Of a stretch of 63,391 bases of DNA, positions 22,690 through 63,391 are shown in pieces. Numbering within the stretch: position 1 is the stretch's first letter; the number at the start of each line of letters is the position of its first letter. Made by a program: the position numbers and the translations under genes. The notes under the pieces are model-generated. The model worked only from the letters and a program-made list of their open reading frames with translations, ran no database searches and was not told the origin of the DNA. This DNA comes from an uncultured Cytophagaceae bacterium (lineage in GTDB: Bacteria; Bacteroidota; Bacteroidia; Cytophagales; Microscillaceae), in contig CAZKBP010000003.1 in the NCBI GenBank assembly GCA_964551015.1, forward strand, positions 213,327-276,717, in the 5' to 3' direction.

Positions 22690-22860
22690 TGGCGTGAGAA
22701 ACTTTTTGTATGGTGTTAATGGATTCATCAGTGAGCTTAAAAACTTTTTAGATGGTGCTAATGGATTCATCAGCGGGCTTAAAAACTTTTTAGATGGCGT
22801 TGAAAGCTTTTTGTATGGTGCTAATGGATTCATCAGTGAGCTTAAAAAATCTTTTATCGA
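22690..22860. repeat. About four tandem copies of a 42-bp unit (AATGGATTCATCAGTGAGCTTAAAAACTTTTTAGATGGTGCT-like). It lies in overlapping ORFs on both strands (TTG-start 22601..23002 on +, ATG-start 22621..22833 on -)
   Basis: Seen directly. The + translation repeats FL(Y/D)G(V/A)NGFISELKN. The - translation repeats LMNPLAP(Y/S)KKFL(S/T)P. Which strand, if either, is coding is undetermined. Confidence 0.6.
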
Positions 22861-45940: not shown

Positions 45941-46786
45941 TTATTTATCTGCTCTTAAGAAATTTTCAATCGCTCGGACAATCTGTTGAGCACCCTCTCC
46001 ATAGAGCATCGTCTGATGATTGCCCGCTACCTCCTGATACTGACAATTTTGCATCATATCAACGGTTTCTAGCGCATTTTCTTTGGGTAGAAGGGGAGGG
46101 GCATCTGAGTCTCCATACGAGCCAGTAGCATTTATCAAAAGAGCAGGTTGACTGACTCCGGCAATGTAATCCGCCCAAGGTTCTCCCAGTACCGCATCGG
46201 TGGCTTTGGCAATGTGTTCGGGCTTAGAGCGAGGCAGGACGCTCCCATCCTCGAGTTCTTCTACGTCGGCTCGGTAGTAGCTAAGCATATGATCTTCCCA
46301 AGCATCTTGCAGAAAAGGCATTTGCTTTACCTGCTCTATGTAAGTCTCAAAAGAAGCAATCTTTTTGCCTAAACGACTCAGGGTAGGTTGTAGCATTTCG
46401 CGGGTGTTGGGATGCATCTGTGCCGCTGCATCCATTAAGAGCAGTTTTTGCGCTCGCTCAGGATAATGATAAGCGAGATGCATGGTGATAAAAGCCCCGA
46501 AGGAGTGCCCCCCCATGATCGCTTTTTCTATATGCAAATTGTCCAAAAGTCCAATAATATCCTGAGTGTGAGCCATCATGCTATAATCCTCAGGCTGACT
46601 ACTCAGGCCACGACCTCTCAGGTCTACACTGATTACACGAAATTTGGGGCTAAGCCCTGCTTGGATGAGTCCGTCAAAAGCGTGGGCATTAGCCGTAAGC
46701 CCATGACTGAGTAAAATGGTCGGCCCCTCACCCGCAAACTCCAAGTAATGAAGGCGAATGCCGTTAATTTCTATATACTTGTCCAT
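45941..46786 (-). CDS. Alpha/beta hydrolase
   Basis: It has the HG oxyanion region (LLSHGLTANAHAF) and the nucleophile elbow GGHSFGA. Length is 281 aa. Confidence 0.8.
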   Translation of the reverse strand: MDKYIEINGIRLHYLEFAGEGPTILLSHGLTANAHAFDGLIQAGLSPKFRVISVDLRGRGLSSQPEDYSMMAHTQDIIGLLDNLHIEKAIMGGHSFGAFITMHLAYHYPERAQKLLLMDAAAQMHPNTREMLQPTLSRLGKKIASFETYIEQVKQMPFLQDAWEDHMLSYYRADVEELEDGSVLPRSKPEHIAKATDAVLGEPWADYIAGVSQPALLINATGSYGDSDAPPLLPKENALETVDMMQNCQYQEVAGNHQTMLYGEGAQQIVRAIENFLRADK

Positions 46787-46889
46787 ATTTGCTAAAATTT
46801 CATGAACCTAGTTTAAGGATTCTGTCTCAAAGGAAACAGGACTTGGCCAGATTACAAAATTTTTTAGAAAATATAAAAGAAAAGCCCCA

Positions 46890-47336
<447 letters not shown>

Positions 47337-47380
47337 TCAACTGAATGCTGATTACGAAGAGCGGATTGCTCACGGCCAAT

Positions 47381-48352
47381 TCAATTCTGCTTATTCCGAT
47401 AAAAAGCCGCTAGAATTTCTTGGCGGGTTGTATTTTTTAGTGTTTTCTGCTGGCGATCTTGGATTTGAATGATGGGTGGCTTTTCTTGCTGATGAGATTG
47501 AGCAGCATTTTCCAAGACCATAAGCAGGTCGGTTTCGGTCTGAAAAGGTAAAACTGGGTGGTCGGCAATTTCGTGAGAAGTAAGCGTGGGAAGAATATCT
47601 TCCAGCGTCATCACTTTGAGTTCTAACTGAAAGCGTTGTGAATCGAAAAAATCAGCCACAAATTGATTTTGGGGGGAAAAGATTAATTCAGCGGGTGTGC
47701 CCAATTGTTGAATTTGCCCTTGATCCATCAAGCAGATCATATCTCCTAGTTCTACCGCTTCAAATACATCGTGGGTAACCATTAGAATGGTTTTTTCTTG
47801 AATACCTTCTAGATGGTCAAATTCATCACGAATCTGGCTCCGAGTAATGGGGTCAAGCGCGCCAAAAGGCTCATCCATAAGCATGAGCGGTGGATCTACA
47901 GCCAAGGCACGGGCAATCCCTATCCGTTGTTTCTGTCCGCCACTAAGCTCGCGGGGATAGCGATTTTTGAAATCACCAGTGGGGAGGCCCATCATAGCGA
48001 GTAGTTCGTCAATGCGCTGGCTAATCTTGGATTTTTCCCAATGCAATAACTGAGGCACAATGGCAATATTTTGCCCTACGGTGTAATGTGGAAAAAGTCC
48101 TGAGTTTTGGATCACATAGCCAATCTTTTGTCGAAGTTTCTCAGGAGATTGTTGCATGACATTTTCGCCGTTAATATAAACCTCGCCAGAGGTCGGTTCT
48201 ATCAAGCGATTAATCATCTTCAGGGTCGTTGTTTTGCCACTACCACTGGTGCCAAGCAGAATGAGCTTCTGTCCTTTCTCCAGAGCAAAAGAGGCTTGAT
48301 CTACGGCGGTAAAGTCCCCAAATTTCTTAGTCAAATTTTTAATTTGGATCAT
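47381..48352 (-). CDS. ABC transporter ATP-binding protein of the compatible-solute (ProV/OpuC/OsmV) type with one C-terminal CBS-like domain. No cognate permease is encoded nearby
   Basis: Walker A is GTSGSGKTT. NRLIEPTSGEVYINGENV is a hallmark of OpuA/OpuC-class ATPases. The signature motif is LSGGQKQRIGIARAL and Walker B is LMLMDEPFGALD. The C-terminal ~85 aa look like a CBS domain. Confidence 0.85.
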   Translation of the reverse strand: MIQIKNLTKKFGDFTAVDQASFALEKGQKLILLGTSGSGKTTTLKMINRLIEPTSGEVYINGENVMQQSPEKLRQKIGYVIQNSGLFPHYTVGQNIAIVPQLLHWEKSKISQRIDELLAMMGLPTGDFKNRYPRELSGGQKQRIGIARALAVDPPLMLMDEPFGALDPITRSQIRDEFDHLEGIQEKTILMVTHDVFEAVELGDMICLMDQGQIQQLGTPAELIFSPQNQFVADFFDSQRFQLELKVMTLEDILPTLTSHEIADHPVLPFQTETDLLMVLENAAQSHQQEKPPIIQIQDRQQKTLKNTTRQEILAAFYRNKQN

Positions 48353-48409
48353 GGTAAAATGGCTTGTCGTTGTGGGTGATTGCTTACTCGATTCTGCGGA
48401 GTCTGGCGA

Positions 48410-49576
48410 TTATTTTTTCACACGGAGTAGGACGGATAAATGCTGTCCACAACCTAAGCCCTGCTGTAATTCAAATTCCAAACTTCTGAGAATGTATGCA
48501 ATATGAGGTTCAATTAGATTTGCTCTGGGATCACCGTAAGCAATCCACTCGTTGTCTCTGATCAAACGATCGAGCGTGAGAAGGCCAAATTGTAAAATGG
48601 GAGGAAAGCTCGCCCAGTCTTTCAGGTCGTGGGGAGCAATGGGAGCTTGCAGTCTTTTTTGGGCATATTTGATCATCAAATTCCAACTATTCAATAATTG
48701 GCTCAGAAAAGACTCTACTTGGGCGTGTGAAGTGTCGGGAAAAATTTCGGGCTTGAGAATCAATTTGCTCAAGTCAGTACGTACAAAAGGCTCTAACAAG
48801 CTGTTTACTGACTGGCGAATATGTTTAAAGAAATTGCCATAAGCGCGCTGGTCCTCAGGACAAGCAACTAAAATAGAACGATCTACCTGTCGGAGAATTT
48901 CTAGATTTGCATCCAAATCACGAGATAATTCACCAACCAAATGAGCGATTTCTTCCCCACTCCAATCATAGCCCTCGGGGGCATCGGCCATAAAACTATT
49001 CAAAATAGAATATTTGCCTTTGACATCCAATACAATCAAGCTATGCGGATGCGCGTGCTCACAAATATCTTTGAGGAGATCATATAGTTCCTGTGGGGTC
49101 AAGCGAGAAAGTGCCCCCCAGGCAGAAAAATACACGTCAAAGGGGGCTTCTAATTCTTTGAACATACCCAATCCTTCGTGATAATCGGCCTTGATAAAGC
49201 GAACCCGTTTTTGGTCTTTGTGTAGTTCATTGGCGCTTTCTACCAGATCTAAATCCTGCTCCAAGCCAAGATACAGCTCTATCATTTCTTCGGGGAGAAG
49301 ATAAGAAGGTTCTAGGGATAGTTCAGAGGCATCTTGGCGAATACGGCTGATTATGCCGTAATTTTGCCCATAAGACGAACCAATCTCGAGGATACGGATA
49401 CCTTGTCGCTTTTTTTGCTTGCGTTGGACTAACTTTTTGAGGAAAGGACGCAGTGTAAACTGAATGAGTTCGCTTTCCCAACGCGTGCGAACCGCGTCCC
49501 GTGCGGGCTTTGACTCGGTAGCGGGAGTGGCTAATCCCTGCCAGTCGTAAAAAATCGCTTGCCTCAATTCTCCCAT
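48410..49576 (-). CDS. Hypothetical protein with class I SAM-methyltransferase-like, possibly EgtD/Methyltransf_33-like, features
   Basis: 388 aa. FYD lies near the N-terminus (QAIFYDWQG, compare EgtD WFYDAVGS). IRILEIGSSYG compares with EgtD LVELGSGTS. VYFSAWGALSRLTPQE compares with VVFLGSTIGNLTPAP, and HPHSLIVLDV with QPGDSLLLGTDL. The similarity is remote and the comparison EgtD segments are quoted from memory. Confidence 0.35.
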   Translation of the reverse strand: MGELRQAIFYDWQGLATPATESKPARDAVRTRWESELIQFTLRPFLKKLVQRKQKKRQGIRILEIGSSYGQNYGIISRIRQDASELSLEPSYLLPEEMIELYLGLEQDLDLVESANELHKDQKRVRFIKADYHEGLGMFKELEAPFDVYFSAWGALSRLTPQELYDLLKDICEHAHPHSLIVLDVKGKYSILNSFMADAPEGYDWSGEEIAHLVGELSRDLDANLEILRQVDRSILVACPEDQRAYGNFFKHIRQSVNSLLEPFVRTDLSKLILKPEIFPDTSHAQVESFLSQLLNSWNLMIKYAQKRLQAPIAPHDLKDWASFPPILQFGLLTLDRLIRDNEWIAYGDPRANLIEPHIAYILRSLEFELQQGLGCGQHLSVLLRVKK

Positions 49577-50010
49577 AGTAGAGTAATTTGTTTTAATATT
49601 TGAGTCCCGGTGCTACAGGCATTGGACGCCATTGCTTCTGGCTTTTATCTAAAAAAGGCGTAGTTATCCTGAATTTTGTTTCTATACTTCAAACTAAATA
49701 CCTAAAACTTTAATAATCAAATTTTTAGCTAAAAATTTAAAGCAAAACACGAAATTAATTTTGGAAGTAAGGCCAAAAAGCAAATCAGGCTTTTGTCAAA
49801 CGAATTATTTGAAATATAAGGACTTATAACTTGATTATATTGAGAAATAATCCCTATCCAGCAAATAACCAAAATGACGAAAGCTCTCAAAAAATCCACA
49901 TCAACCATGCCAAAAATAGTGGAATGCTTGCTTTTATTAACAAAACCCACGGTGCCTCCAAAACCCAGTGGGTAGGGAGCCATGCGGCTAAGCACGGTAG
50001 CAAAGCCACC

Positions 50011-51234
50011 TCAAACTTGCACGGGCAGCACCTGCTTAAACATACTTATAAACCCTGATTTGATTAACTTCGGGTGGTAATTCTCTTCGTAGCACAGACG
50101 TGCATTTTGGGACATTTCTTGATAGGCTTCGGGCGACATTCGGTAAATCTCTTGAAGTGCCTCTCTGGCTTCTTCTACATGACGAACCACAAAGCCTGCA
50201 CCATAGGCACTTACCTGCTCGTGAATGGGCACTTTATCGGTGATAATAATAGGCTTAGAAAAAGAGAGTGCTTCCACGATGCTCAATCCAAAACCCTCGT
50301 AGCGAGAGAGTTGCATATAGACATAAGCTTCACTCAGGTATTGATGCTTGTCTTCATCAGAGACCTTACCCGTCAAGATTACATCCTGACCAATTTCTAG
50401 CCCCGCCTGATTGCAAAGCTGCCTTACCTGTCTTTGTTTTTGCTCGGAAGCATTGCCCAGCATGTACAAGGGAAATCGAGAAGAGGTTTTATCATAAAAA
50501 CTTCTCAAAGCTTTGATCTGTAAGTCGATACCTTTTTGGTAAATATCAAATCTTCCTACAAAGCAAATGTATTTTTTAGGGTCAGGAGTATGCTGTGTAG
50601 GAGCATAATCATTCACAAAATTAGTTACTGTCATCACCTGATTGTGGCTATAACGTTGAATATATTCGGCTCCTTCTTCGGTGATGGCGTGTATGAGCTT
50701 GGCTTGGTCTAAAAGGCGTTTTTCCAGAGTTTTAAGAAAAAACAATTTCAGAAGATAATTTTTTCTCAAGCTCTCAGGGCTGTAAGAATCGTGAGGCGTA
50801 AAAACATAAGGAATGTTGCGCTTATGGAGCGACTGTGCCAGATGGTAGTTAGCCAGATTGAACATACTATGCAGGTGAAAAATACTATTCTCCTGTGAGG
50901 GTAGCTCATCTAACCAGCGATAAAAGGTGTTAGGCAAGTACCATCCTTTCAGGTGCATTTTACCAAAAAGATGTACATCAATATTTTCTTCTTCTTTCAC
51001 TACCTGATAGTCTTGGGCATCCTCCAAGGCAAAGTTGATAAAGTGAATATGTACCTGATCTTTGAGAAGTTGTGCTAGCTGGTACAAGTACTCTCTCACG
51101 CCACAGCCTGATTCAGCTTGGTACACTCCAAATTGATAGAGATGGATTGTAGGCATCTTGGACGGCGTTTGCTGGTATCTTAGATCTAAAATGGTAGTCT
51201 TTCCGGCTAGTAAAGGATTGTGTGAGTAAACCAT
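50011..51234 (-). CDS. Glycosyltransferase family 4 (GT-B)
   Basis: The C-terminal GT-B domain has EGFGLSIVEALSFSKPII (the EX7E region) and an upstream FVGRFDIYQKGIDL. Confidence 0.8.
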   Translation of the reverse strand: MVYSHNPLLAGKTTILDLRYQQTPSKMPTIHLYQFGVYQAESGCGVREYLYQLAQLLKDQVHIHFINFALEDAQDYQVVKEEENIDVHLFGKMHLKGWYLPNTFYRWLDELPSQENSIFHLHSMFNLANYHLAQSLHKRNIPYVFTPHDSYSPESLRKNYLLKLFFLKTLEKRLLDQAKLIHAITEEGAEYIQRYSHNQVMTVTNFVNDYAPTQHTPDPKKYICFVGRFDIYQKGIDLQIKALRSFYDKTSSRFPLYMLGNASEQKQRQVRQLCNQAGLEIGQDVILTGKVSDEDKHQYLSEAYVYMQLSRYEGFGLSIVEALSFSKPIIITDKVPIHEQVSAYGAGFVVRHVEEAREALQEIYRMSPEAYQEMSQNARLCYEENYHPKLIKSGFISMFKQVLPVQV

Positions 51235-51857
51235 GATTGTTGTTAGTGCAATATACTAGATTAGTTTTTTAATGGCTTGTCCAAACTAAATCGTCTGCTC
51301 GAGGCAATATCCTATCCAAAAACCTGCTTTTAGGCTTTCTTGATACATATTGACCGGGAGCTTGTCTCAAAAAAAGATAGTAAAGACAAGTGATATTGCT
51401 ATTATGGAAAGAATCCTTATTTTGGTGAAATCGTGTCTCAGGATTTTAAAATTGCATTCTCTGATACTTACGTATAAGTAGCGTTCAGAGATAAATTTTG
51501 AGATGAGAAAATGCTAGATGAAGGATTTTATTTCTTGGGTAAAACTAACTCGTCTCCTACAAAAGGATACATTGGTTAGAACGCAAAGCTGGAAGTTTGG
51601 TTCGAGATACTTAGGAAGGGGAAGATAGTTTACCCTCTATTCTACAAAAATGGTACGGATGATTGATTTCCCTTCTTGTTTTCTTACAAGGAGAGAAAGC
51701 TTTTCTAAGAATTTAGTCTCATTTTGAGATGAGCTCTGAGTTTTTCAAGGGGATATCTCCCAAAGAGAGACGTTTTCCAAATGATCTTAACTCGGCAAGG
51801 CTGTGATTTCACATAAAAACCCAGTAGATTATCACATCCACTAAGTTTTTTTTAGAA

Positions 51858-53024
51858 TCAATACTTTGGTAGAGAAGGGTCAATCTCTTTGACCCAGGCC
51901 AAGATACCTCCTTCTAAATTATAAAGGTTTTTAAATCCATATTGATCTTCTAAAAGCCGAATGGCCTCCTTGCTTCGCTTGCCACTACGGCAGTGAAGAA
52001 TGACTTTCTTGTTCAGGCTAATTCGATCCACTTCTTCGCGAATGGTATGGAGAGGGAGCAAATCGCCTTGAAGGTTGACAATCTCGTATTCATAAGGTTC
52101 GCGGACATCAATCAACTGAAAATCTTCTTTTTGCTGAATCATTTCCTGTAATTGTTGAACCCCGATTGACTTGATAGAACTGGTTTCTCGCTCTTGCTGC
52201 TGAGGAACACCGCAAAACTCCTGATAATCAATTAGTTTAGTGATCGTGGGATGCTCACCATTGATCGGATTATTTTTATGACGCTTGATCTTCAGAACGT
52301 GTGTCTCAAAAGAAGCCGCATCAAATACAAAGAAACGCCCCGAAAGTGGTTGACCCACTCCCGTGATCACCTTGATGACCTCATTGGCCTGCAAGCTACC
52401 AATAATGCCCGGTAAAACACCCAATACGCCCCCTTCGGCACAACTAGGAACCATATCGGGAGGGGGAGGACTAGGATACAAATCACGATAATTTGGGCCT
52501 AAGTTTCCTGCTTGATCGCGATAATTGAATACGGATACTTGTCCTTCAAAACGAAAAATAGCAGCGTAGATGAGGGGCTTATCCAACAATACACAAGCAT
52601 CATTGACCAGATAACGAGTAGGGAAATTATCGGTGCCATCCGCCACAAGATCGTAATCTTGGATGATCTCGAGGGCATTTTTGGAGGTTAATACCGTGTT
52701 GTGTGGCATGATTTTGATGTGGGGATTGAGGCTTTCCAAGCGTTTTTGAGCCGCTTCTACTTTGGGTTGGCCTATATTTTCTACCCCGAAGAGCACTTGT
52801 CTTTGCAGATTAGATTCATCTACAACATCAAAATCGACAATGCCAATCGTGCCCACACCCGCCGCGGTCAAATAAAGCAACAGCGGGCTACCCAAACCAC
52901 CTGAACCCACCACCAGCACGCTGGCCGCTTTGAGCTTGCGTTGTCCTTCTATATTAAATTCAGGGATTAGCAAGTGACGGCTGTATCTCTCCAACTCGGC
53001 CTTGCTAAATTCAATTTTTTCCAT
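51858..53024 (-). CDS. moeB: Molybdopterin-synthase/ThiS adenylyltransferase (MoeB/ThiF E1-like) with C-terminal rhodanese domain
   Basis: RYSRHLLIPEF is followed by the nucleotide-binding VLVVGSGGLGSPLLLYLTAAGVG, and the C-terminal rhodanese domain has an active-site Cys (ILHCRSGKRS). The ATG at 53024 was chosen over the upstream TTG at 53042. Confidence 0.85.
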   Translation of the reverse strand: MEKIEFSKAELERYSRHLLIPEFNIEGQRKLKAASVLVVGSGGLGSPLLLYLTAAGVGTIGIVDFDVVDESNLQRQVLFGVENIGQPKVEAAQKRLESLNPHIKIMPHNTVLTSKNALEIIQDYDLVADGTDNFPTRYLVNDACVLLDKPLIYAAIFRFEGQVSVFNYRDQAGNLGPNYRDLYPSPPPPDMVPSCAEGGVLGVLPGIIGSLQANEVIKVITGVGQPLSGRFFVFDAASFETHVLKIKRHKNNPINGEHPTITKLIDYQEFCGVPQQQERETSSIKSIGVQQLQEMIQQKEDFQLIDVREPYEYEIVNLQGDLLPLHTIREEVDRISLNKKVILHCRSGKRSKEAIRLLEDQYGFKNLYNLEGGILAWVKEIDPSLPKY

Positions 53025-53130
53025 GTTGATTTTGAGTTTCAAAGATTAATTGATCGCGAAATAGCTTTCCTTTACCAAATAGATAATACTTTTTTTTTGA
53101 ACACAGAGACACAGAGGCCTTACGAGGCTT

Positions 53131-53290
53131 ATTCAAACACAGAGACACGGAGACACAGAGGCCTTACTAGGCTTATTCAAACACAGAGACAAATAAAGAC
53201 ACAGAGACAAATAAAGACAAGAGACACAGAGACACAGAGACACAGAGACAAATAGAGACATAAAGATAAAGAGACACACAGATACAGCGC
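53131..53290. repeat. Compound microsatellite built on (CACAGAGA)n. It holds two ~44-bp copies of ACACAGAGACAC..AGAGGCCTTAC(G/T)AGGCTTATTCAA followed by degenerate GAGACA/ATAAAGACA repeats
   Basis: Seen directly in the divergent intergenic region between moeB (-) and the GH2 gene (+). The track ORFs 52974..53255 (+) and 53173..53385 (-) are translation artefacts of this repeat (...TETQRHRDK... and ...CLCVSVSLCL...). Confidence 0.8.
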
Positions 53291-63246: not shown

Positions 63247-63391
63247 TTGGGAAACTTCGCGGAGTTGGAGAAGTCTCAAGTTGTAAGATCGTTCTACGAC
63301 GATGGTTTGAGAAGTCTCCAGCGGTAAGATCGTTCTACGACGCTCGTTGGAGAAGTCTCAAGAGGAAAGATCTTTCAACGACGATCGTTGG
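63247..63391. repeat. At least 3 copies of a degenerate 40-42-bp tandem repeat (TTGGAGAAGTCTCAAG-nnnn-AAGATCGTTCTACGACG-nnnn), truncated by the window end
   Basis: Seen directly: units at 63265-63306, 63307-63346 and 63347-63387, with the next unit starting at 63388. Both the conserved blocks and the 'variable' blocks are short, and the whole unit repeats. Confidence 0.7.

What the first reader, a model, noticed from the sequence alone, without database searches (positions are those of the whole stretch)
47381..49576. Divergent EgtD-like methyltransferase-fold protein co-directional with an orphan betaine-type ABC ATPase
The 388-aa protein carries N-terminal FYD, an SAM motif-I-like ILEIGSSYG, and WGALSRLTPQE...HPHSLIVLDV matching EgtD LGSTIGNLTP...PGDSLLLGTDL. 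EgtD is the histidine trimethylating enzyme of hercynine/ergothioneine synthesis (Methyltransf_33). Fifty-seven bp downstream on the same strand is an ABC ATPase with the NRLIEPT hallmark of OpuA/OpuC/EgtV-class betaine transporters plus a CBS domain. No permease, substrate-binding protein or EgtB-like sulfoxide synthase is present. This may be an uncharacterised amino-acid-betaine making or sensing module whose membrane partner lies elsewhere, or the ATPase may have another role.
Basis: partly seen in the sequence, partly recalled or inferred. Interest (0 to 1): 0.55.

Follow-up and report, generated by a model that had tools for sequence, protein, structure and literature searches.

The report
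Trimmed remnant of an osmolyte gene cluster
The two genes are what remains, in one bacterial family (Microscillaceae), of a widespread "make-and-import a betaine-like osmolyte" gene cluster: a strongly altered methyltransferase-fold protein (not EgtD) next to an intact betaine-type transporter ATPase whose membrane partner is missing from the locus.

Summary
Both ORFs lie on the minus strand: a 388-aa protein (48410-49576) and, 57 bp downstream, a 323-aa ABC ATPase (47381-48352). The window holds no permease or binding-protein gene.

The EgtD reading is not supported:
- The 388-aa protein has no Pfam or NCBIfam hit.
- Its family matches generic class-I methyltransferase models.
- Its predicted fold matches many class-I methyltransferases, with EgtD absent from the listed hits.

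The protein belongs to a small, apparently uncharacterised two-domain methyltransferase family.

The Microscillaceae clade is a derived branch:
- It has lost 14 of 52 family-conserved residues, including part of SAM motif I.
- It has lost a ~30-aa segment, the asnB gene and the permease/binding-protein gene.
- It is still under strong purifying selection (dN/dS 0.06-0.09).

The ATPase is an ordinary ~325-aa OpuC-type subunit with all catalytic motifs and a single CBS-like tail.

Most likely this is relic synteny: a repurposed methyltransferase-fold protein beside a transporter ATPase that probably serves a permease encoded elsewhere. Interest is moderate.

The parts
48410..49576 (-). Gene for the 388-aa methyltransferase-fold protein, a member of the divergent Microscillaceae clade of a two-domain class-I methyltransferase family.
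   Evidence: ORF. No Pfam or NCBIfam hit. 32 relatives in the 5.8-billion-protein set and 188 clusters in the 1.84-billion-protein set. Model pLDDT 91.6. Class-I methyltransferase fold.
49004..49501 (-). N-terminal Rossmann-type methyltransferase domain (aa 26-191).
49361..49393 (-). Degenerate SAM motif I (aa 62-72, ILEIGSSYGQN). The family consensus is LDLGCGxGxG.
   Evidence: Alignments. Column statistics: C67 is 0/14 and G68 is 5/14 in the Microscillaceae clade, against 87% and 100% in 70 canonical members.
48413..48967 (-). Family-specific C-terminal domain (aa 204-388). It keeps the conserved R254/N258/L260, W298-N299 and GDxRANxIEPxxAYxLRxLE...GxGCG motifs. It lacks the canonical ~30-aa 'YSMSYLY...FPxRFW' segment and the VGRHxDT motif.
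   Evidence: pLDDT dips at aa 191-200 and 241-250, exactly where the canonical motifs are missing.
48353..48409 (-). 57-bp spacer between the two genes. No terminator-like site lies in it, so co-transcription is possible.
47381..48352 (-). Gene for the 323-aa OpuC/OpuA-type ('osmoprotectant transport system') ABC ATPase.
   Evidence: TIGR01186 proV subfamily, 297.9 bits. Best PDB sequence match is OpuA ATPase 7ahc, E 5e-57. 55-66% identical over its full length to thousands of ~325-aa homologues. Walker A/B, Q-loop, LSGGQ and H-loop are intact.
47384..47617 (-). C-terminal tail of the ATPase (aa 246-323): a single CBS-like module.
   Evidence: Model topology is (strand)-helix-strand-helix-strand-strand-helix, at pLDDT about 76-95. 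The OpuAA alignment runs into the start of CBS1. No Pfam CBS hit in any of 48 homologues.
49577..50010 (.). 434-bp AT-rich (35% GC) non-coding gap upstream of the 388-aa gene, presumably the promoter region. No RNA family and no Thx gene is present here.
47241..47380 (.). 140-bp AT-rich gap downstream of the ATPase. It holds a promoter-like site for the following ferredoxin gene, so the two-gene unit probably ends here.
   Evidence: minus-strand site 47318-47290..

Best explanation
SHOWN.
- The 388-aa protein is a member of a small two-domain class-I methyltransferase family: an N-terminal Rossmann methyltransferase domain plus a family-specific C-terminal domain.
- In Cyanobacteria, Scalindua/Brocadiaceae, Opitutaceae, Myxococcota, Vicinamibacterales, Armatimonadota, Ignavibacteriales and others, the ~415-aa canonical members sit in one conserved cluster. 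The order is asparagine synthase B, methyltransferase, ~325-aa (or ~255-aa) OpuC/OpuA-type ATPase, then permease plus OpuAC binding protein, the last two often fused.
- The window carries a reduced version of that cluster, restricted to Microscillaceae. Only the methyltransferase-like gene and the ATPase gene directly behind it remain.
- The ATPase is conserved over its full length with cluster-embedded ATPases and keeps every catalytic and membrane-domain-coupling motif.
- The methyltransferase-like protein has diverged strongly but is under strong purifying selection.

INFERRED.
(a) The adjacency is inherited synteny from the complete cluster, not a newly evolved two-gene 'module'.
(b) The ATPase still energises an OpuC-type importer whose permease/binding-protein gene lies elsewhere in the genome.
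(c) The methyltransferase-like protein no longer carries out the ancestral reaction, presumably N-methylation of an amino-acid-type osmolyte precursor. It has been repurposed, either as a methyltransferase with a different substrate or as a non-catalytic protein that still binds a ligand. It does not depend on the ATPase, because some relatives keep it without the ATPase.
For: Family and fold.

Conserved cluster:
- L006, L007 and L008.
- A tblastn survey of 80 genome loci finds AsnB directly upstream, and ATPase plus permease plus binding protein directly downstream, in most non-Microscillaceae loci.
- ORF maps of Scalindua, Nodularia and Calothrix give AsnB, methyltransferase (415-417 aa), ATPase (323-329 aa) and a fused permease/binding protein (525-541 aa).
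- The AsnB neighbour scores 620 bits against a cut-off of 499 for NF006949.

Microscillaceae pair without a permease:
- Seen in the window, L001, L002/L010, L004/L005 and L012.
- Two further cases are suggested by matching contig lengths: P0003/P0178 and P0008/P0190.

Other points:
- The clade is monophyletic and nested within the family.
- Of 52 columns conserved at >=85% in 70 canonical members, 30 are kept, 14 lost and 8 partly lost. The losses include motif I, H158, E192/W193/W197, R239/H240/T243 and H378, plus a ~30-aa deletion.
- dN/dS is 0.06-0.09 between L004 and L012, in both halves of the gene.
- The window ATPase is 58.7% identical over 322 aa to the Scalindua rubra cluster ATPase. 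That is as close as it is to other Microscillaceae copies.
- All ATPase motifs are intact, including the Q-loop 'GLFPHYTV' segment.
- The nearest non-Microscillaceae ATPase (62% identity) sits beside a fused permease/binding protein.
- GC content of both genes equals the window average, so there is no sign of recent transfer.
Against: - No partner permease was found. None of the top 120 relatives of a Scalindua permease/binding protein is labelled Microscillaceae. The rest of this genome could not be searched.
- Microscillaceae ATPases are more divergent from one another (50-60% identity) than permease-linked ATPases are across phyla (57-67%). This fits some relaxation or a change of role.
- The window protein keeps G66, G70, E106, D131 and D147. 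A GxxxG motif I occurs in active enzymes such as catechol O-methyltransferase (from my own knowledge). It may therefore still be an active methyltransferase, possibly still making a betaine.
- The adjacency persists in about 7 lineages even where the flanks differ (L004), which could reflect functional coupling rather than inertia.
- The function of the canonical family is itself only inferred from gene context. I found no characterised member in the paper library.
Confidence: 0.6

Rival explanations
1. The 388-aa protein is still an active SAM-dependent N-methyltransferase that makes an amino-acid betaine or similar osmolyte. The adjacent ATPase is the dedicated energiser of the matching importer, whose membrane parts are encoded elsewhere. 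The pair is then a working 'make and take up' unit.
For: - Canonical relatives are tightly linked to betaine-type importers.
- The window protein retains several SAM-site positions: E64, G66, G70, E106, D131 and D147.
- The gene is under strong purifying selection.
- The spacer is 57 bp with no terminator-like site.
- The family profile's best PDB matches are phosphoethanolamine N-methyltransferases, enzymes that build a quaternary amine.
Against: - 14 of 52 family-conserved residues are lost and are not replaced by clade-conserved alternatives at those positions. The ~30-aa canonical segment is deleted.
- The glycine loop of motif I varies freely within the clade (GLPNLRG, GVGPQDA, GIEASSS, GDRQDST), whereas it is nearly invariant in 70 canonical members.
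- No methyltransferase Pfam model detects the window protein, although 71 of 85 family members are detected.
- asnB, the usual upstream partner, is absent.
- Four lineages keep the protein without the ATPase: L009, L011, L097 and L098/L099.
Confidence: 0.15
2. The 388-aa protein is a pseudo-enzyme that has become a regulatory or sensing partner of the ATPase. The pair works as a soluble, non-transport ATPase module: for example, ligand binding by the methyltransferase fold could control ATP hydrolysis, or the reverse.
For: - The catalytic-site motifs are relaxed or lost while the scaffold is under strong purifying selection.
- The pair is retained without permease or binding protein in about 7 lineages, including one with different flanks.
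- Microscillaceae ATPases evolve somewhat faster than permease-linked ones.
- Orphan copies seem to be the rule in this family.
Against: - The ATPase keeps the Q-loop/'GLFPHYTV' segment that contacts the membrane domain in importers. It is indistinguishable in architecture from thousands of permease-linked homologues.
- The 388-aa protein occurs without the ATPase in four lineages, and the ATPase occurs without it in L090.
- No direct evidence of an interaction could be obtained with these tools.
Confidence: 0.15
3. Both genes are non-functional leftovers of a decaying cluster.
For: Neighbouring cluster genes have been lost. Conserved residues have been lost. The ATPase in L012 is split into three frames.
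Against: - ORFs are intact in many genomes that share only 42-66% identity.
- dN/dS is 0.06-0.09.
- All ATPase motifs are intact.
- The broken copy in L012 comes from a contig with 2.9x coverage, so sequencing error is the likelier cause.
Confidence: 0.03

Closest known systems
EgtD (histidine N-alpha-trimethyltransferase, Pfam Methyltransf_33 / PF10017)
   Same: Class-I SAM-methyltransferase fold. EgtD makes an amino-acid betaine, and canonical relatives of the 388-aa protein sit next to betaine-type importers.
   Different: - No PF10017 hit for this protein; only 4 of 85 family members touch it weakly.
- EgtD is not retrieved by a family profile search of PDB sequences.
- The C-terminal domain is different, and there are no EgtB/C/E neighbours.
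Small-molecule N-methyltransferases that build quaternary amines (phosphoethanolamine N-methyltransferase, glycine-sarcosine and sarcosine-dimethylglycine N-methyltransferases)
   Different: Similarity is confined to the ~100-180-residue Rossmann core. The family has its own ~185-aa C-terminal domain. The window protein has lost motif-I residues and the family's invariant His/Trp/Arg positions.
The unnamed asnB-linked two-domain methyltransferase family (canonical ~415-aa members in Scalindua, Nodularia, Calothrix, Leptolyngbya PCC 7375, Opitutaceae, Myxococcota and others)
   Same: Full-length homology at 29-43% identity, E down to 1e-90. Same two-domain layout. 30 of 52 conserved columns are retained. 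An OpuC-type ATPase gene lies directly downstream.
   Different: 14 conserved columns are lost and a ~30-aa segment is deleted. The protein is not detected by any methyltransferase Pfam model. There is no asnB upstream and no permease or binding protein downstream.
OpuA/OpuC/OpuB-type osmoprotectant ABC importers with a fused permease/binding-protein subunit (for example L. lactis OpuA, PDB 7ahc; two-gene systems such as L096)
   Same: The ATPase's best PDB sequence match is OpuA ATPase (E 5e-57). Its best NCBIfam hit is the proV subfamily. It has the NRLIEPT and GLFPHYTV segments and all catalytic motifs. It is 62% identical to an ATPase that sits next to a fused permease/binding protein.
   Different: No permease or binding-protein gene is at the locus or in the 63-kb window. 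The tail is a single CBS-like unit invisible to Pfam, instead of a tandem CBS pair. The score is below the TIGR01186 cut-off. Walker A reads GTSGSGKTT in all Microscillaceae copies, against GTSGCGKTT elsewhere.

Membership tests
EgtD / Methyltransf_33 (PF10017) | Significant match to the PF10017 profile | tested here: not met
   No Pfam family at E<=1 for the 388-aa protein. Only 4 of 85 family members match PF10017, best E 1.4e-4, against 71 of 85 for PF13649.
EgtD / Methyltransf_33 (PF10017) | Closest solved structures or sequences are EgtD-type enzymes | tested here: not met
EgtD / Methyltransf_33 (PF10017) | Ergothioneine-pathway neighbours (EgtB sulfoxide synthase, EgtC, EgtE) | tested here: not met
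   The neighbours are a GT4 glycosyltransferase, the ABC ATPase, a ferredoxin and alpha/beta hydrolases. Related loci show none either.
Class-I (Rossmann-fold) SAM-dependent methyltransferases | Seven-stranded Rossmann-like methyltransferase fold | tested here: met
Class-I (Rossmann-fold) SAM-dependent methyltransferases | Motif I glycine loop (E/D-x-G-x-G-x-G) and the acidic residue after strand 2 | tested here: inconclusive
   The window has E64-I-G66-S-S68-Y-G70, so the middle glycine is lost, and E106 is kept. The loop is highly variable in the clade but nearly invariant in canonical members. GxxxG variants exist in active enzymes (own knowledge), so SAM binding can be neither affirmed nor excluded.
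Class-I (Rossmann-fold) SAM-dependent methyltransferases | SAM binding and methyl transfer | not testable with these tools
   Needs biochemistry (ITC or DSF with SAM and SAH, and activity assays).
asnB-linked two-domain methyltransferase family (unnamed) | Full-length homology including the C-terminal domain motifs (R254, N258, W298-N299, RANxIEPxxAYxLR, GxGCG) | tested here: met
asnB-linked two-domain methyltransferase family (unnamed) | Family-invariant putative active-site residues (C67/G68, H158, E192/W193/W197, R239/H240/T243, H378) and the 'YSMSYLY...FPxRFW' segment | tested here: not met
   All are lost or deleted in the window protein and its clade.
asnB-linked two-domain methyltransferase family (unnamed) | Gene context: asnB upstream; ATPase, permease and OpuAC binding protein downstream | tested here: not met
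   Only the ATPase is present.
OpuA/OpuC-type betaine ABC importer ATPase (TIGR01186 proV subfamily) | Profile score above the curated cut-off | tested here: not met
   It is the best hit, but at 297.9 bits against a cut-off of 326.6. The profile (363 positions) expects a longer tandem-CBS tail; the match covers positions 2-249.
OpuA/OpuC-type betaine ABC importer ATPase (TIGR01186 proV subfamily) | Intact Walker A/B, Q-loop, LSGGQ signature, D-loop and H-loop | tested here: met
OpuA/OpuC-type betaine ABC importer ATPase (TIGR01186 proV subfamily) | C-terminal CBS regulatory domain | tested here: inconclusive
   No Pfam CBS hit in any of 48 homologues. The model shows one CBS-like unit at aa 248-323. 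The weak best match of the tail alone is a CNNM2 CBS domain at E 1.2. The OpuAA alignment enters CBS1.
OpuA/OpuC-type betaine ABC importer ATPase (TIGR01186 proV subfamily) | Cognate permease and substrate-binding protein | tested here: not met
   Absent from the 63-kb window and from the flanks fetched at the related Microscillaceae loci. Presence elsewhere in the genome could not be tested.

The most novel reading that the evidence does not exclude
In Microscillaceae, an osmolyte-pathway methyltransferase has become a pseudo-enzyme that is kept under strong selection. Together with an OpuC-type ATPase that has lost its membrane partner, it forms a soluble ligand-sensing ATPase module with a non-transport role. 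This would be an ABC importer subunit recruited to a new job alongside a dead enzyme.
Probability: 0.12. Interest if true: 0.7.

Novelty: new variant of a known kind. Interest (0 to 1): 0.4.

Why it matters
For this locus the value is mostly corrective. It is not an ergothioneine- or hercynine-type enzyme, and 'orphan betaine module' overstates what the evidence shows.

Two leads are worth keeping:
- The parent family is a conserved asnB, methyltransferase, OpuC-importer cluster. It occurs in ecologically important marine and soil bacteria: Scalindua anammox bacteria and many cyanobacteria (Nodularia, Calothrix, Baaleninema and Leptolyngbya carry it), as well as Opitutaceae and Myxococcota. 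It has no Pfam or NCBIfam family of its own, and I found no characterised member. It predicts an undescribed N-methylated, possibly asparagine- or aspartate-derived, compatible solute.
- The Microscillaceae branch is a clean natural example of an enzyme fold that lost its conserved active-site residues yet stays under strong purifying selection. It sits next to a transporter ATPase without a local membrane partner. That makes it a tractable case for studying how cluster remnants are repurposed.

Tried and rejected
- Anti-phage defence system. PADLOC gives nothing for the 388-aa protein and only generic ABC similarity for the ATPase. Rejected.
- Riboswitch or other RNA in the gaps (SAM, glycine, c-di-AMP types). 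No Rfam match at E<=1 in 46500-51900.
- Thx ribosomal-protein gene in the upstream gap, as in L001 and L002. Absent here.
- Pseudogene decay. Rejected by dN/dS and intact motifs.
- Search for the missing permease:
  - tblastn of the window and of the Microscillaceae loci found nothing.
  - A database search with the Scalindua permease/binding protein gave no Microscillaceae-labelled hit in the top 120.
  - Attempts to reach the 277-kb source contig only returned short Logan contigs.
  - The question remains open.
- Literature search for a characterised family member or an Asn/Asp/Gln/Glu/homoserine betaine pathway gene. Nothing relevant found.
- The first genome scan, with the 85-sequence alignment, failed for lack of a conserved stretch. 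It succeeded with a 22-sequence alignment.
Full report
WHAT IS THERE.

Both genes lie on the minus strand. The 388-aa ORF is at 48410-49576. After a 57-bp spacer comes the 323-aa ABC ATPase at 47381-48352.

Upstream of the 388-aa gene is a 434-bp, 35%-GC gap and then a GT4 glycosyltransferase. Downstream of the ATPase is a 140-bp AT-rich gap with a promoter-like site, then a YfhL-type di-cluster ferredoxin and two alpha/beta hydrolases. Because the genes are on the minus strand, a permease gene would be expected below 47381, not 'beyond 49576'. Neither side has one.

tblastn with permease, binding-protein and AsnB queries from complete clusters finds nothing in the whole 63-kb window. No Rfam family matches in 46500-51900. 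The GC content of both genes equals the window mean.

THE 388-aa PROTEIN IS METHYLTRANSFERASE-FOLD BUT NOT EgtD.

It has no Pfam or NCBIfam match at E<=1. Homologues are few:
- 32 in a 5.8-billion-protein set.
- 188 clusters at 50% identity in a 1.84-billion-protein set.

Close relatives (42-55% identity) come from Microscillaceae (Bacteroidota) assemblies and also lack Pfam hits. More distant ~410-436-aa relatives carry generic class-I methyltransferase domains.

Across 85 members, Methyltransf_25 matches 71, Methyltransf_12 matches 64 and Methyltransf_31 matches 59. Methyltransf_33, the EgtD family, matches only 4, and weakly. A family profile searched against PDB sequences finds phosphoethanolamine N-methyltransferases best (E 4e-6) and no EgtD.

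The similarity covers only the N-terminal ~170-214 residues. The C-terminal ~185 residues form a family-specific domain.

THE FAMILY'S NORMAL HOME IS AN OSMOLYTE CLUSTER.

Look-ups of distant members showed this gene order: Asn_synthase, methyltransferase, ABC ATPase, BPD_transp_1 permease, OpuAC binding protein. In one case the cluster lies next to a fused trehalose-phosphate synthase/phosphatase and an MscS channel.

A scan of one genome per GTDB species found 216 loci. The taxa include:
- Cyanobacteria: Crocosphaera, Cyanothece, Leptolyngbya PCC 7375, Calothrix, Nodularia and diatom endosymbionts.
- Scalindua and Brocadiaceae.
- Opitutaceae, Myxococcota, Vicinamibacterales, Armatimonadota, Ignavibacteriales, Caldilineaceae and others.

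In the 80 loci kept, tblastn shows AsnB directly upstream, and ATPase plus permease plus binding protein directly downstream, in most non-Microscillaceae loci. In Scalindua, Nodularia and Calothrix the order is AsnB, methyltransferase (415-417 aa), ATPase (323-329 aa) and a fused permease/binding protein (525-541 aa).

The AsnB neighbour passes the curated asparagine synthase B model, at 620 bits against a cut-off of 499. The canonical methyltransferase has no NCBIfam model. I found no paper that characterises a member.

THE MICROSCILLACEAE CLADE IS A REDUCED, DIVERGENT BRANCH.

A neighbour-joining tree places the window protein and 13 relatives in one clade nested inside the family. Of 52 alignment columns conserved at >=85% in 70 canonical members, the clade keeps 30, partly keeps 8 and has lost 14. 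The losses are:
- C67 and G68 of motif I. The consensus LDLGCGxGxG becomes EIGSSYGQN here, and GLPNLRG, GVGPQDA, GIEASSS or GDRQDST in relatives.
- H158.
- S190, E192, W193 and W197.
- G238, R239, H240 and T243.
- H378.
- A deleted ~30-aa segment, 'YSMSYLY...FPxRFW'.

These positions lie in loops after strands 4 and 5 and later strands. In class-I methyltransferases those loops usually line the substrate pocket; this is inference from general knowledge. The model's only low-confidence internal stretches (aa 191-200 and 241-250) coincide with them.

Scaffold residues and most C-terminal motifs are kept. The clade has its own conserved positions: N116, K123, R126, F330, D341, Y347 and H358.

The gene is not decaying. 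Between two orthologues (L004 and L012, 87% identical) dN/dS is 0.06-0.09, in both halves of the gene.

Gene context in this clade:
- Protein plus ATPase, with no asnB and no permease: the window, L001, L002/L010, L004/L005 (different flanks) and L012. Two further contigs probably belong here, judged by matching contig lengths.
- Protein alone: L009, L011, L097 and L098/L099.

THE ATPase IS AN ORDINARY OpuC/OpuA-TYPE SUBUNIT.

Its best NCBIfam hit is the proV/betaine subfamily. The score of 297.9 bits is under the 326.6 cut-off, and the match covers only the first 249 of the model's 363 positions, leaving the model's C-terminal part unmatched. Its best PDB sequence match is the L. lactis OpuA ATPase (E 5e-57), and that alignment runs into the start of CBS1.

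Thousands of ~322-328-aa proteins from many phyla match it over 99-100% of its length at 54-66% identity. Many are named 'osmoprotectant transport system ATP-binding protein'. Many of them have the same longest-contig length as a fused permease/binding protein from the permease search. The nearest non-Microscillaceae one (62% identity) sits directly beside such a gene.

The window ATPase is 58.7% identical over 322 residues to the cluster-embedded ATPase of Scalindua rubra. Walker A/B, the Q-loop with the following GLFPHYTV segment, LSGGQ, the D-loop and the H-loop are all intact in all five Microscillaceae copies examined. Those copies share a Ser for Cys in Walker A (GTSGSGKTT), which is consistent with common descent within the family.

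The 78-residue tail is not recognised as CBS by Pfam in any of 48 homologues. It is nevertheless modelled with good confidence as one CBS-like beta-alpha-beta-beta-alpha unit.

Microscillaceae copies are somewhat more divergent from one another (50-60% identity) than permease-linked copies are across phyla (57-67%). A further Microscillaceae genome has the ATPase with neither the methyltransferase-like gene nor a permease gene nearby.

INTERPRETATION.

The simplest account is relic synteny. An ancestor of Microscillaceae held the full cluster. asnB and the permease/binding-protein gene were lost from the locus, leaving the methyltransferase-like gene and the ATPase gene that always follows it.

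The ATPase looks fully competent and typical. It most likely still powers an OpuC-type importer encoded elsewhere. This is inferred and was not verified, because the rest of the genome could not be searched.

The methyltransferase-fold protein has lost what appears to be the ancestral substrate pocket, and the constraint on its SAM loop is relaxed. Yet it is strongly conserved. It has therefore been repurposed, either to a new substrate or to a non-catalytic role. For the window copy itself, SAM binding cannot be excluded, since E64, G66, G70, E106, D131 and D147 are retained.

Rivals:
- It still makes a betaine and works with the ATPase (0.15).
- It is a pseudo-enzyme acting as regulatory partner in a soluble ATPase module (0.15).
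- Both genes are dead remnants (0.03).

A defence-system reading was checked and dropped.

VERDICT.

This is a new variant of known kinds (a class-I methyltransferase fold and an OpuC-type ATPase). It is of moderate interest in itself. The parent asnB, methyltransferase, importer cluster is the more promising lead for a new compatible-solute pathway.

Noticed in passing
L035:6414-11827; L023:6388-11945; L013:7914-11720; also L006, L007 and about 40 other loci: A conserved cluster occurs across more than 10 phyla: asparagine synthase B, an uncharacterised ~415-aa two-domain methyltransferase, an OpuC/OpuA-type ATPase, and a permease with OpuAC binding protein. The methyltransferase has no NCBIfam model, and I found no paper on it. 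The cluster may encode synthesis and uptake of an undescribed N-methylated osmolyte.
   Followed up: partly
L006:4089-7560: In one metagenomic contig the cluster sits beside a fused trehalose-6-phosphate synthase/phosphatase gene and an MscS mechanosensitive channel gene. This looks like an osmoadaptation island.
   Followed up: no
P0038 (934 aa), P0039 (901 aa), P0070 (597 aa): In these long proteins the methyltransferase-family region starts only at about residue 540 (or about 210). In the two longest, the N-terminal region is the right size for a fused AsnB. The N-terminal part was not examined.
   Followed up: no
L090:6001-7682 and L091: Another Microscillaceae genome (GCA_003483885.1) has a 323-aa OpuC-type ATPase (56% identical) with no methyltransferase-like gene or permease gene nearby. 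Its 3' end overlaps a leucine-rich-repeat protein gene by 19 bp. Orphan copies of this ATPase may be the rule in the family.
   Followed up: partly
window 47381-48352 and the Microscillaceae ATPases in L001, L002, L004 and L090: All Microscillaceae copies have Ser in Walker A (GTSGSGKTT), whereas permease-linked homologues from other phyla have Cys (GTSGCGKTT).
   Followed up: partly
L001:5550-5672; L002:5604-5753; window 49577-50010: A tiny Thx (ribosomal protein S31-like) gene lies between the GT4 gene and the methyltransferase-like gene in two related genomes. It is absent from the corresponding 434-bp gap of the window.
   Followed up: yes
window 46890-47240 (-): The YfhL-type 2x[4Fe-4S] ferredoxin is 116 aa, against an 80-position profile, and matches it in two stretches. 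That implies an insertion of about 35 aa between the cluster motifs. The same gene follows the ATPase in L001 and L002.
   Followed up: no
L012:9056-10067: The ATPase downstream of the methyltransferase-like gene is split into three overlapping frames. The contig has only 2.9x coverage, so assembly error is more likely than a true pseudogene.
   Followed up: partly
window 53101-53287: Intergenic tandem repeats (44 bp x 2.1, then an 18-bp/8-bp 'ACACAGAG'-rich array) lie next to the ThiF/MoeB-rhodanese gene at 51858-53042.
   Followed up: no
window 63264-63391 and 22699-22797: A 41-bp tandem repeat (3.1 copies) runs into the right end of the window. A 42-bp repeat (2.4 copies, 91% match) lies at 22699-22797.
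   Followed up: no
window 51858-53042 (-); L001:1076-3962: A ThiF/MoeB-rhodanese gene lies upstream of the GT4 gene. In L001 it is preceded by PALP, JAB and ThiS-like genes, which looks like a sulfur-carrier set. Whether those genes are also in the window was not checked.
   Followed up: no
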